From Escherichia phage Ec_O157kw: a DNA stretch of 64,000 nucleotides. The translations under genes were made by a program, and so were the position numbers. Below, in pieces: positions 11,917 through 12,911 of this stretch. The notes beneath the pieces are model-generated. The model did no database searches and was not told where the DNA came from. It was given only the letters and a program-made list of their open reading frames with translations. The stretch is taken from the sequence record PV857777.1; one strand, 5' to 3'. Position 1 is the stretch's first letter, and each line of letters opens with the position of its first letter.

Positions 11917-12549
11917 ATGATTTATTATATGCACAAAAATCCACCGTTTAAATACGGTAAATTTCCTGATGCACAATGTTATAATATAACGCCTGATGAA
12001 AATAACCGTGGATATCTTATTGGCACAATTTTTGTAATTGTTAAAGATAACGAAATCGTTGCCTGGGCAGATTTTAAAGGTACAACATATGATGTTAATC
12101 CGGTGCCTTTCACATATTACAATTTAATGGATTTGGCATACGATTATAATTGGTTTAATCATGACACTTTGGCTCATATTGAAGGTGTAGGATTTGATAT
12201 TTCATATTCGGAATACACTTTAAGCCCTATGAGTCGAGCCCATAAAGAACCTGAATATTTTTCATTTAGGAAACGTGTAAACTTTAAACGCAGCACAGAG
12301 TATGTCGGTGGAATATTTGTTAAAGATAATCGAATTACTCGCATTATTTATCCTTTGGGCTGTGGTCAAAAAGATATTGATGTTAATTTAGACTTTACTG
12401 AAAACATCATTAATCATATTGCTTCTGTGTATTTTGGTATCGATCACAAAATTGTAATATGTGGATATGAATTACCGTTTGAAGAACAGCCTAAAGTAAA
12501 AGTTTCTATTGACGATCAAATTTTTAATGCTTTTATGAATAAAGGTTAA
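11917..12549 (+). CDS. hypothetical protein (61.2-like)
   Basis: 210 aa; C-terminus SIDDQIFNAFMNKG is shared with the next ORF. Confidence 0.65.
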   Translation: MIYYMHKNPPFKYGKFPDAQCYNITPDENNRGYLIGTIFVIVKDNEIVAWADFKGTTYDVNPVPFTYYNLMDLAYDYNWFNHDTLAHIEGVGFDISYSEYTLSPMSRAHKEPEYFSFRKRVNFKRSTEYVGGIFVKDNRITRIIYPLGCGQKDIDVNLDFTENIINHIASVYFGIDHKIVICGYELPFEEQPKVKVSIDDQIFNAFMNKG

Positions 12550-12553
12550 TATG
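12505..12553 (+). repeat. direct repeat copy 1 (49 bp, 3 mismatches to copy 2)
   Basis: tctattgacgatcaaatttttaatgcttttatgaataaaggttaatatg. Confidence 0.85.
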
Positions 12554-12907
12554 TATAGTTCTGAATTTTCATATTTAAAAATGGAAAAAATTTCATACGA
12601 TTTTATAGATGAAAAGGTTTATTACAGTTTCCATGAACCGCGTTTTAATAGTGAGGTTGGGTTTATTGTAGTAAAAGACAATTTCATTTTAAAGATATAT
12701 TCGGCATTAAAGGATTTTCACTATGAAAATATTAACCTAAAATTTGATAAAGAAAACGTTCGTAATTGTGCAGTAACAATTACAGGAAATAAAGGTACGT
12801 GTGTTATGCTATCTGATGAAATTAATGATTTGCTAAATGATGCAGAAAATATTACTGCGCCATCTATTGATGACCAAATTTTTAATGCTTTTATGAATAG
12901 AGGTTAA
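12551..12907 (+). CDS. hypothetical protein (61.1-like)
   Basis: 118 aa; C-terminus SIDDQIFNAFMNRG. Confidence 0.6.
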   Translation: MYSSEFSYLKMEKISYDFIDEKVYYSFHEPRFNSEVGFIVVKDNFILKIYSALKDFHYENINLKFDKENVRNCAVTITGNKGTCVMLSDEINDLLNDAENITAPSIDDQIFNAFMNRG

Positions 12908-12911
12908 TATG
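12863..12911 (+). repeat. direct repeat copy 2
   Basis: tctattgatgaccaaatttttaatgcttttatgaatagaggttaatatg. Confidence 0.85.

What the first reader, a model, noticed from the sequence alone, without database searches (positions are those of the whole stretch)
12505..12911. 49-bp direct repeat brackets the 61.1-like gene and gives two adjacent proteins the same C-terminal tail
The sequences at 12505-12553 and 12863-12911 are direct repeats (3 mismatches). Each covers the last 13 codons, the stop and the next RBS/ATG. The 210-aa and 118-aa proteins therefore both end in SIDDQIFNAFMN(K/R)G. This is the footprint of a cassette insertion or duplication by recombination at short homology, and it marks a recombination-prone module boundary.
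Basis: seen in the sequence. Interest (0 to 1): 0.45.

Follow-up and report, generated by a model that had tools for sequence, protein, structure and literature searches.

The report
Repeated AdfA-family tail holding promoter P61
Two neighbouring genes of a T4-like phage end in the same 49 bases because that stretch encodes a strictly conserved protein tail and also carries a known promoter and ribosome site for the next gene; related phages show signs of recombining at this repeat, which fits the gene in between being present in some and absent in others, so it is a clear example of a known way phage genomes shuffle genes rather than a new mechanism.

Summary
Window 12505-12553 and 12863-12911 match at 46/49, 358 bp apart, and the flanks are at random identity. 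The window is a Tequatrovirus early region: 41-dmd-61.4-sp-61.2-X-61.1-61. The 210-aa protein is AdfA (T4 gp61.2, anti-DarT factor). The bracketed 118-aa gene is not 61.1-like; it is an RB32ORF033c-type protein that Pfam places in the AdfA family. The repeat is not an insertion scar. The same tail occurs once in T4 and T2, and in three protein families across four genera. There the peptide DDQIFNAFM is invariant while its codons vary only synonymously. The right copy is identical over -40..-3 to the mapped T4 middle promoter P61 (start site 19122): MotA box, 12-bp spacer, -10 TAATAT overlapping the 61.1 ATG. The left copy duplicates these elements. The repeat also appears to recombine. All four arrangements occur (adfA+118, adfA only and exactly 358 bp shorter, 118 only, neither). 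Tail haplotypes are shared between the two gene contexts. In Gaprivervirus DK-13 one tail has been converted to the other. The "recombination-prone module boundary" reading is supported; "footprint of insertion" is not. I class it as a new variant of known modular shuffling, of moderate interest.

The parts
11917..12549 (+). adfA (T4 gene 61.2 homologue), 210 aa, anti-DarT factor A. It ends in the left copy of the tail.
   Evidence: PF23813 AdfA scores 455.6 bits over 1-210. His is present at the position equivalent to RB69 residue 164 (role of that residue from PMC11257639). The 5' two-thirds is Mosigvirus-like and the 3' third is T4-like.
12505..12553 (+). Left copy of the 49-nt repeat: the last 14 codons of adfA (SIDDQIFNAFMNKG), TAA, T, and the ATG of the 118-aa gene.
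   Evidence: Haplotype C,T,A at repeat positions 9, 12 and 38.
12526..12552 (+). Predicted second copy of a P61-type middle promoter: MotA box AATGCTTTT (12526-12534), 12-bp spacer, -10 TAATAT (12547-12552). The predicted start is about 12559, inside codon 3 of the 118-aa ORF.
   Evidence: The MotA box and -10 are identical to the right copy; the only difference is at -17. The phage Lutter record annotates a promoter in both copies. Activity has not been tested.
12517..12541 (+). 25-nt stretch perfectly identical to 12875-12899. It is the longest uninterrupted homology between the copies and the most likely crossover zone.
12551..12907 (+). 118-aa gene (phrog_4122; RB32ORF033c-type), an optional cassette that ends in the right copy of the tail.
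   Evidence: phrog_4122 scores 242 bits. PF23813 scores 31.9 bits against a cut-off of 27, over profile positions 113-211. The gene is present at 90% identity or more in 293 phage records. It is absent from T4 and is the only gene between sp and 61.1 in T2.
12863..12911 (+). Right copy of the repeat: the last 14 codons of the 118-aa gene (SIDDQIFNAFMNRG), TAA, T, and the ATG of 61.1.
   Evidence: It is identical over all 49 nt to the T4 adfA tail.
12884..12917 (+). Homologue of T4 middle promoter P61: MotA box 12884-12892, -10 TAATAT 12905-12910 (overlapping the 61.1 ATG), predicted +1 at 12917 (8 nt after the A of the 61.1 ATG).
   Evidence: The T4 P61 start site is 19122 (Table 1 of PMC2988021, primary reference Marshall et al. 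1999). It maps to L001 position 1810. T4 -40..-3 is identical to window 12877-12914.
12909..13073 (+). Gene 61.1 (54 aa).
   Evidence: phrog_1823 scores 115 bits. T4 annotation.
13076..14104 (+). Gene 61 (DNA primase), the gene served by P61.
   Evidence: ORF. Annotated as primase in all matching records.

Best explanation
The 49-nt repeat is the common 3' end module of a family of small paralogous genes (AdfA/gp61.2, the 118-aa RB32ORF033c type, and a 145-aa type in other genera). These genes sit between sp and the primase gene in the 'anti-toxin island' of T-even phages. The module carries three overlapping functions. (1) It encodes an invariant C-terminal peptide, (S/D)(I/V)DDQIFNAFM(N/K)(K/R)(G/D). 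The models place it as a short amphipathic helix after a flexible linker, and it is under strong purifying selection as a protein. (2) In Tequatrovirus the codons AAT-GCT-TTT form the MotA box, and TAATAT (spanning the stop codon and the next ATG) forms the -10 of the MotA/AsiA-dependent middle promoter P61, which drives the primase gene. (3) The sequence A(G/A)AGGTTAATATG provides the Shine-Dalgarno and start codon of whichever gene follows. Because two tail-bearing genes lie in tandem here, the module is present twice. Its DNA identity is kept high mainly by these constraints and is topped up by occasional gene conversion. The two copies are a substrate for the phage's very active homologous recombination. 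Unequal crossover would remove or add the 358-bp unit (118-aa body plus one tail), which fits the adfA+118 versus adfA-only polymorphism. The module's 3' end is the junction at which different downstream cassettes are found. Shown: the repeat, the identity to mapped P61, the purifying selection on the peptide, the four arrangements, the shared haplotypes, and the conversion in DK-13. Inferred: activity of the left promoter copy, the function of the tail helix, and the direction (gain or loss) of each event.
For: Repeat and sharp edges. Gene identities. P61: start site 19122 in Table 1 of PMC2988021 (primary reference). It maps 8 nt into 61.1 with -12..-7 = TAATAT and TTTAATGCTTTT at -35..-24, and the window's right copy is identical over -40..-3. 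The consensus and 12+/-1 spacing come from the same review. Phage Lutter annotates promoters in both copies. Peptide selection: among 10 distinct tails from Tequatro-, Mosig-, Dhaka- and Gaprivervirus and three protein families, all 6 variable sites within DDQIFNAFM are third positions, giving 7 synonymous states and 0 non-synonymous (P about 1e-6). The tail is invariant in the AdfA alignment. Terminal helix after a low-confidence linker. Constraint is sufficient for 46/49: P = 0.028 from the peptide alone and 0.22 after excluding MotA-box and SD codons. Recombination: T4 is exactly 358 bp shorter with one tail. There are four arrangements, with roughly 154 tandem, 167 adfA-only and about 139 118-only records. 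Haplotypes C-T and T-C occur on both adfA and 118 tails, including C,T,G tails in the adfA-only phages UKE3-1 and 132. EAWsc9 tails differ at 9/49 and DK-13 tails at 3/49, and all 5 changes in DK-13's second tail match its own first tail. T4 recombines experimentally at 6-10-bp microhomologies in this very locus (PMC9391042). Different genes follow the same junction, including an unannotated DUF7279 ORF in DK-13.
Against: No experiment shows that the left copy fires or that the tail peptide has a function. In Mosig-, Dhaka- and Gaprivervirus the MotA core is TGCAT or TGCCT, so the promoter layer may be specific to Tequatrovirus. The 'hybrid' C,T,G tail of adfA-only phages also exists as a right copy in Elenatom, so it is not unambiguous proof of a crossover inside the core. 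Only 26 tails were read base by base; the collection-wide statements rest on BLAST identity of synthetic junction queries. Homology of the 118-aa body to AdfA outside the tail is weak, so 'paralogue' could instead mean an unrelated body that acquired the tail. adfA itself has recombination breakpoints away from the tail, so the tail is not a uniquely hot site.
Confidence: 0.75

Rival explanations
1. One reading: the repeat is a passive scar of a recent event. The 118-aa cassette was inserted, or a segment was duplicated, by recombination at a short homology. Both proteins then acquired the same tail as a by-product, and the tail has no function of its own.
For: The edges of identity are sharp and the two bodies are almost unrelated at the DNA level. 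T4 lacks exactly the 358-bp unit. Given the peptide alone, DNA identity is somewhat higher than codon usage predicts (P = 0.028).
Against: The tail is present on adfA in genomes that have no 118-aa gene (T4) and on the 118-aa gene in genomes that have no adfA (T2). It is also present on a third, 145-aa family and in four genera, with synonymous-only divergence, so it long predates any recent event and is selected as a protein. It contains the mapped promoter P61. The excess identity disappears once promoter and SD codons are excluded (P = 0.22). The insert has no transposase or homing-endonuclease domain.
Confidence: 0.07
2. Pure constraint with no exchange: the two tails are similar only because the peptide, the promoter and the ribosome site are each conserved. 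The copies evolve independently, and the presence/absence polymorphism arose by other means, such as replacement of whole segments by flanking homology in sp and gene 61.
For: 46/49 is compatible with the constraint-only null (P = 0.22). Tails differ at 5/49 between genera and at 9/49 within EAWsc9, which looks like saturation under peptide constraint. adfA shows breakpoints elsewhere, so flanking homology is clearly used.
Against: The same two-site haplotypes occur in both gene contexts. In DK-13 five of five changes in tail 2 copy tail 1, including a Ser-Val for Asp-Ile replacement. The T4/window difference is precisely one repeat unit with a single intact tail. A 25-nt perfect repeat greatly exceeds the 6-10 bp that T4 is shown to use for deletions and amplifications.
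Confidence: 0.13
3. DNA-first explanation: the selected entity is the regulatory DNA (P61 plus RBS). Any gene placed upstream of 61.1/61 must read through it, so the shared peptide is merely the translation of a promoter.
For: The MotA box, -10 and SD are all inside the repeat and are invariant in all Tequatrovirus copies. SNP3 at -17 tracks the downstream gene in every tail read base by base, and none of the best-matching junctions departs from this.
Against: Across genera the DNA changes, including in the MotA core (GCT to GCA or GCC), while the peptide does not, and all changes are synonymous. The conserved peptide extends 20 nt upstream of the MotA box (S-I-D-D-Q-I-F), where no promoter element is known. 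In Mosig-, Dhaka- and Gaprivervirus the tail is not followed by 61.1/61.
Confidence: 0.05

Closest known systems
PeSL (promoter-early stem-loop) mobile regulatory cassettes of T4-type phages (Arbiol et al. 2010, PMC2839356; Comeau et al. 2014, PMC4122927)
   Same: Both are short conserved regulatory sequences repeated at the borders of small non-essential genes in a variable region of a T4-type genome. Both serve as points of homologous exchange that produce insertion, deletion and replacement of the ORF between two copies (abstracts).
   Different: PeSLs are intergenic and consist of a strong sigma-70-type early promoter plus a terminator stem-loop. This element lies inside coding sequence (the last 14 codons) and carries a MotA-dependent middle promoter with no -35. 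It has no stem-loop: no terminator-like site was found in 11000-14200 and no sigma-70-type hit coincides with the repeat on the + strand. It is additionally constrained as a protein motif.
Bacteriophage T4 middle promoter P61 (start site 19122; Marshall, Sharma and Hinton 1999, listed in Hinton 2010, PMC2988021)
   Same: The window's right copy is identical to T4 over -40..-3, with the MotA box, 12-bp spacer, -10 TAATAT and the same position relative to 61.1 and 61.
   Different: T4 has one copy. This phage has a second copy 358 bp upstream that differs only at -17, and its activity is unknown. The review does not describe the promoter as lying within a conserved protein-coding tail.
AdfA (anti-DarT factor A, T4/RB69 gp61.2; LeRoux et al. 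2022 as cited in PMC11257639 and PMC9391042; Pfam PF23813)
   Same: The 210-aa protein is a full-length AdfA with His at the residue that the literature links to DarT1 binding. The 118-aa protein passes the Pfam AdfA threshold and has the same order of secondary-structure elements as the AdfA C-half, ending in the same terminal helix.
   Different: The 118-aa protein lacks the N-terminal half. Without the tail its similarity to AdfA is marginal (BLASTP E = 0.003; hhalign probability 13%; no AdfA hit in the exhaustive phmmer search). No anti-DarT activity is known for it.
Short-homology (microhomology) recombination producing deletions and tandem amplifications in T4 (Srikant et al. 2022, PMC9391042, and references therein)
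   Same: It is the same genome region (the dmd-tifA-adfA 'anti-TA island') and the same outcome: loss or gain of a unit bounded by direct repeats, with one repeat left at the junction.
   Different: Those events were laboratory-selected and used 6-10-bp chance microhomologies. Here the repeat is 49 nt with a 25-nt perfect core, is functional, and the polymorphism is seen among natural isolates.

Membership tests
T4 MotA/AsiA-dependent middle promoter | MotA box (a/t)(a/t)(a/t)TGCTT(t/c)a centred near -30 | tested here: met
   Both copies have TTTAATGCTTTT. In T4 this lies at -35..-24 relative to the mapped start. The last consensus base is T rather than the weakly preferred A.
T4 MotA/AsiA-dependent middle promoter | Good sigma-70 -10 element (TAnnnT) 12 +/- 1 bp downstream of the MotA box, with no -35 element | tested here: met
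   TAATAT follows a 12-bp spacer in both copies. The sigma-70 scan lists no + strand -35/-10 hit at either copy. The loose pattern alone is only about 2-fold enriched in the window (28 found against 14.4 expected), so sequence alone is weak evidence.
T4 MotA/AsiA-dependent middle promoter | Experimentally mapped, MotA-dependent transcript 5' end | not testable with these tools
   For the right copy this is inferred from 100% identity over -40..-3 to T4 P61, start site 19122. There are no data for the left copy.
AdfA (Pfam PF23813) | Score above the Pfam gathering threshold | tested here: met
   The 210-aa protein scores 455.6 bits and the 118-aa protein 31.9 bits, against a cut-off of 27. The precomputed annotation PF23813.2 is attached to all 118-aa homologues.
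AdfA (Pfam PF23813) | Homology of the 118-aa protein to AdfA outside the shared 14-residue tail | tested here: inconclusive
   Body-only BLASTP gives 35% identity over 65 aa, E = 0.003, collinear with the C-half. hhalign with tails removed gives E = 0.002 and probability 13%, and the hit lands on the N-half VKDN motif. Body-only phmmer over 1.84 billion representatives finds no AdfA. The models share the order of elements but have pLDDT 60-69.
AdfA (Pfam PF23813) | Binds and neutralises DarT1 toxin | not testable with these tools
   Only the His at the RB69-164-equivalent position of the 210-aa protein could be checked (literature).
PeSL regulatory cassette | Strong sigma-70-like early promoter | tested here: not met
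   There is no + strand sigma-70 -35/-10 match at either copy. The element matches the middle-promoter class instead.
PeSL regulatory cassette | Stem-loop transcription terminator adjoining the promoter | tested here: not met
   No terminator-like site was found in 11000-14200. No inverted repeat lies within the repeat.
PeSL regulatory cassette | Repeated copies flank variable ORFs and coincide with indel/replacement endpoints between related phages | tested here: met
   There are four arrangements. The 358-bp indel is bounded by the copies, and different genes follow the junction.
Direct-repeat-mediated deletion/duplication (unequal homologous recombination) | The variant lacks exactly one repeat plus the intervening DNA and retains one intact repeat | tested here: met
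   In T4 and other adfA-only phages the match span is 543 against 901 bp, which is 358 bp shorter, with a single 49-nt tail.
Direct-repeat-mediated deletion/duplication (unequal homologous recombination) | The retained repeat is chimeric (left-copy markers 5', right-copy markers 3') | tested here: inconclusive
   The adfA-only phages UKE3-1 and 132 carry C,T,G, that is left-type SNP1-2 with right-type SNP3. The same haplotype exists as a right copy in Elenatom and L011, so a crossover in the core is likely but not the only route.
Mobile-element insertion footprint (target-site duplication) | The insert encodes a mobility function, the duplicated site is otherwise non-functional, and the site is single at empty loci | tested here: not met
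   The 118-aa protein has no transposase or endonuclease domain. The 'site' is a conserved coding tail plus a promoter.

The most novel reading that the evidence does not exclude
The invariant C-terminal helix DDQIFNAFM is a portable functional module, for example a docking or inhibitory helix for a shared partner. On this reading it defines a wider family of anti-defence proteins: AdfA, the 118-aa RB32ORF033c type and the 145-aa type. Their variable bodies would set specificity for different toxins. The tail's DNA has been co-opted as promoter, ribosome site and recombination socket, so that specificity domains can be swapped in and out of the anti-toxin island without disturbing primase expression. 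If so, the 118-aa and 145-aa proteins are new counter-defence factors, and gene conversion keeps their tails interchangeable.
Probability: 0.25. Interest if true: 0.6.

Novelty: new variant of a known kind. Interest (0 to 1): 0.35.

Why it matters
The finding connects three things that are usually treated separately: a protein motif, a mapped middle promoter and a recombination site. It shows them overlapping in one 49-nt module inside the region of T-even genomes now regarded as an anti-toxin island. In practice it explains why annotations of the sp-61 interval differ among hundreds of Tequatrovirus genomes. It predicts a second P61-type promoter in about 150 sequenced phages. It flags the 118-aa and 145-aa proteins as candidate counter-defence factors related to AdfA. 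It also gives a defined natural substrate, a 25-nt perfect core flanked by marker SNPs, for measuring short-homology recombination and gene conversion in T4-like phages. It does not reveal a new mechanism.

Tried and rejected
(1) Population survey through IMG/VR. An exact scan for the tail found only 5 contigs, too few, so I used synthetic junction queries against the phage collection instead. These give identities, not base-by-base haplotypes.

(2) The idea that the tail marks a sharp boundary between divergent adfA alleles. I rejected it. The sliding-window comparison shows that the window/T4 divergence ends near 12280, about 220 nt upstream of the tail, and that the adfA 3' third is T4-like.

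(3) Proving that the 118-aa body is an AdfA C-half paralogue. Body-only BLASTP, exhaustive phmmer and hhalign give only marginal support, so I left it as inconclusive.

(4) Function from fold. The AlphaFold models are of modest confidence (pLDDT 68.6 and 60.4). Foldseek against the PDB found nothing significant (best E = 0.15). PUR-repeat and Whirly-like entries appear among the non-significant hits and were not pursued.

(5) Literature on the 118-aa gene. A search for RB32ORF033c found nothing. The PeSL paper comparing PST with T4 does not mention 61.1 or 61.2. The primary AdfA paper (LeRoux 2022) is not in the searchable library.

(6) Mobile-element insertion or target-site duplication. I rejected this because there is no mobility gene and the 'site' is functional.

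(7) Resemblance of the tail to clamp-binding or PIP-type motifs. I considered this from memory, but the spacing of hydrophobic residues does not fit. It was not tested further and is not claimed.
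Full report
**1. What is in the sequence**

The window's + strand reads in the direction of T4 early and middle transcription. The ORFs are:
- gp41 helicase, 9634-11061
- dmd, 11120-11302
- 61.4 (DUF7279), 11304-11561
- sp, 11622-11915
- a 210-aa ORF, 11917-12549
- a 118-aa ORF, 12551-12907
- 61.1 (54 aa), 12909-13073
- gp61 primase, 13076-14104

The closest records are Tequatroviruses such as phage TH09, at 99.7% over 11000-13200.

The 210-aa protein is AdfA (T4 gp61.2), scoring 455.6 bits on PF23813. The 118-aa protein belongs to phrog_4122 and is annotated RB32ORF033c in some records. It is not 61.1-like.

The repeat is exactly as reported. Positions 12505-12553 and 12863-12911 match at 46/49 with spacing 358. 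It covers 14 codons, the stop, one T and the next ATG. In-register identity outside it is 6-11 of 30 on both sides. The 24-nt core occurs twice in the window against 0.01 expected.

**2. The repeat contains a known promoter**

The Hinton review of T4 prereplicative transcription lists an identified middle promoter P61 with start site 19122 (PMC2988021 Table 1). The primary reference is Marshall, Sharma and Hinton 1999.

Mapped onto T4 (AF158101, locus L001), that base is 8 nt downstream of the A of the 61.1 ATG. Positions -12..-7 read TAATAT, and TTTAATGCTTTT lies at -35..-24. This fits the published consensus of a MotA box followed 12 +/- 1 bp later by a -10 element.

T4 -40..-3 is identical to window 12877-12914. 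The right copy of the repeat is therefore P61, with a predicted start at 12917.

The left copy has the same MotA box (12526-12534) and -10 (12547-12552). It differs only at -17. The deposited annotation of phage Lutter marks a promoter in both copies. Whether the left copy is active is an inference.

The last 13 nt, A(A/G)AGGTTAATATG, also supply the Shine-Dalgarno sequence and start codon of the next gene.

**3. The tail is a selected protein motif, and it is old**

The same tail ends several different proteins:
- AdfA in T4, which has no 118-aa gene
- the 118-aa gene in T2, which has no adfA
- AdfA of Mosigvirus phi25-307
- a 146-aa protein of Dhakavirus Bp7
- both a 145-aa and a 117-122-aa protein in Gaprivervirus EAWsc9 and DK-13

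Among 10 distinct tail sequences, the nine codons for DDQIFNAFM vary at six nucleotide positions. All six are third positions. They give seven extra synonymous codon states and no amino-acid change (P about 1e-6 under neutrality). The tail is invariant in the AdfA alignment.

The AlphaFold models are of modest confidence (pLDDT 68.6 and 60.4). In both proteins they place the tail as a separate terminal helix after a low-confidence linker.

The synonymous changes in other genera hit the MotA core (GCT to GCA or GCC). So the peptide, not the promoter, is the universally conserved layer. The promoter layer is documented only for Tequatrovirus.

**4. Is 46/49 evidence of a recent event?**

Only weakly. 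Using the window's codon usage, two independent encodings of the 13 identical residues should differ at 5.6 codons. Two differ, giving P = 0.028. Excluding the three MotA-box codons and the SD codon, the expectation is 3.6 and P = 0.22.

Tails from different genera differ at about 5/49, and the two tails of EAWsc9 differ at 9/49. That is what saturation under peptide constraint looks like. The identity therefore does not by itself demand a recent insertion or duplication.

**5. Evidence that the copies do recombine**

(a) *Four arrangements.* Four arrangements exist between sp and 61.1: adfA+118 (window, Lutter), adfA only (T4), 118 only (T2) and neither (RB3). T4-type genomes are shorter by exactly 358 bp and keep one intact tail. 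Approximate numbers of records are 154 tandem, 167 with an adfA-to-61.1 junction and 293 with the 118-aa gene, which implies about 139 that are 118-only.

(b) *Marker association.* The three marker sites behave as expected for exchange. SNP3 lies 11 nt from the downstream ATG. It goes with the downstream gene in every tail read base by base, and none of the best-matching junctions departs from this: A before the 118-aa gene and G before 61.1.

(c) *Shared haplotypes.* The two-site haplotypes at SNP1-2 (C-T and T-C) both occur on adfA tails and on 118-gene tails. T4's adfA tail is identical to the window's 118-gene tail. Elenatom's 118-gene tail carries the window's adfA-type SNP1-2. The adfA-only phages UKE3-1 and 132 carry the chimeric C,T,G tail expected from a crossover in the 25-nt perfect core.

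(d) *Conversion in Gaprivervirus.* The two tails differ at 9/49 in EAWsc9 but at 3/49 in DK-13. All five changes in DK-13's second tail adopt the state of its own first tail. This is a directional gene-conversion signature.

(e) *Experimental precedent.* T4 has been shown experimentally to delete and amplify segments of this very locus through 6-10-bp microhomologies (PMC9391042). A 49-nt repeat with a 25-nt perfect core is a far better substrate.

(f) *Different downstream genes.* The tail/RBS/ATG junction is followed by different genes in different phages: 61.1, the 118-aa gene, a 63-65-aa gene, and in DK-13 an unannotated 73-aa DUF7279 ORF (72 bits) that starts at the tail's ATG.

*Caveats.* Only 26 tails were read directly. 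The C,T,G haplotype also exists as a right copy, so it is not unique proof of a core crossover. adfA has breakpoints elsewhere: its 5' two-thirds is Mosigvirus-like. The tail is thus one of several exchange points. The direction of each event, gain or loss, is not resolved.

**6. Relationship of the two proteins**

With tails included, BLASTP gives 33% identity over 123 aa (E = 2e-9), and Pfam puts the 118-aa protein just above the AdfA threshold. Without tails the support falls:
- BLASTP gives E = 0.003.
- hhalign gives probability 13%.
- An exhaustive phmmer search finds no AdfA.

AdfA appears to be two beta5-alpha units, each with a VKDN motif. The 118-aa model has a similar order of elements. 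Paralogy is plausible but unproven. The alternative is that unrelated bodies acquired a common tail.

**7. Comparison with what is known**

[quoted passage not shown] This element fails two defining PeSL features, the sigma-70 early promoter and the terminator stem-loop. It is also coding.

It contains the already-known promoter P61 and ends the already-named AdfA. I found no description of the shared tail, of the duplicated promoter, or of the 118-aa gene in the searchable literature.

**8. Verdict**

The repeat is a recombination-active module boundary, but it is a functional, ancient, three-layer module (peptide, promoter, translation start) and not an insertion scar. I class it as a new variant of a known kind, with interest about 0.35. 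The most interesting open possibility is that the tail defines a broader family of counter-defence proteins whose specificity bodies can be swapped.

Noticed in passing
window 11884-12280 (3' end of sp and 5' two-thirds of adfA): This segment is only about 55-65% identical to T4 but 90-100% identical to Mosigvirus phi25-307. From about 12284 onward the gene is 95% or more T4-like. adfA in this phage is therefore an inter-genus mosaic whose breakpoints are not at the tail.
   Followed up: partly
window 11917-12549 (AdfA protein): AdfA looks like an internal duplication. The model shows two beta5-alpha units (residues 2-81 and 100-173). The motif F-V-(I/x)-V-K-D-N occurs at residues 39-45, and its shorter form F-V-K-D-N at 134-138. 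The same motif occurs once in the 118-aa protein (FIVVKDN, residues 38-44). The models are of modest confidence, and PUR-repeat/Whirly-like PDB entries appear only among non-significant Foldseek hits.
   Followed up: partly
window 12909-12917 (start of 61.1): The mapped P61 start lies 8 nt inside the 61.1 ORF. P61 transcripts therefore cannot translate 61.1 from its annotated ATG, and in T4-type phages 61.1 must be made from upstream read-through transcripts. In tandem-type phages the left promoter copy, if active, would place 61.1 on a middle transcript.
   Followed up: no
L002 (T2) 1499-1512 and L003 (RB3) 1999-2012: Where sp is followed directly by the 118-aa gene (T2) or by 61.1 (RB3), the 12-nt spacer reads TTAGAGGTTAGT or TTAGAGGCTAAT before the ATG. 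This resembles the last 13 nt of the tail (ATAGAGGTTAAT) and may be a remnant of the tail's 3' end left by deletion of adfA.
   Followed up: no
L017 (phage Elenatom) 868-1490: adfA is split into two ORFs (98 aa and 64 aa) by a frameshift or deletion, while the downstream 119-aa paralogue is intact. [quoted passage not shown]
   Followed up: no
L018 (EAWsc9) 1062-1869; L019 (DK-13) 1017-1809; L006 (Bp7) 1406-1846: A third tail-bearing family of 145-146 aa (phrog_8539-like; annotated as 'serine/threonine protein kinase' in EAWsc9, which Pfam does not support). Its N-terminus (KNPNAQAY...YLGYFLVDSDNII) resembles the AdfA N-terminus (KFPDAQCY...GYLIGTIFVIVKDNEIV). AdfA may correspond to a fusion of a 145-type and a 118-type gene, or the two may be split products of AdfA.
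   Followed up: partly
L019 (DK-13) 1811-2032: An unannotated 73-aa ORF of the DUF7279 family (72 bits), the family of the window's 61.4 ORF (the gene the literature calls tifA). It starts at the ATG of the second tail junction, so DK-13 carries an extra candidate anti-toxin cassette that its record does not annotate.
   Followed up: yes
L005 (phi25-307) 2029-2496: In Mosigvirus the 61.1 sequence (EDMVAGDSGGSP...VVNKGPEQIP) is the C-terminal third of a 155-aa protein (compare phrog_2086, 156 aa). T4-type 61.1 (54 aa) therefore looks like a truncated version of a longer gene.
   Followed up: no
window 14866-15717 (+), overlapping the end of 14280-14891: A 283-aa ORF with a TTG start and no Pfam hit overlaps the 3' end of the dUTPase_2-like ORF (probable gp56 dCTPase). 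It contains an 'AHHILPK' motif reminiscent of HNH-type homing endonucleases, a resemblance from memory that was not tested.
   Followed up: partly
literature versus annotation of adfA (window 11917-11931): The published RB69 adfA constructs start at MHKN... (primer sequences in PMC11257639), four codons downstream of the ATG annotated here and in most records (MIYYMHKN...). Residue numbering such as 'H164' is therefore offset by about 3-4 from the ORF coordinates used here; the His is residue 167 in the window ORF.
   Followed up: partly
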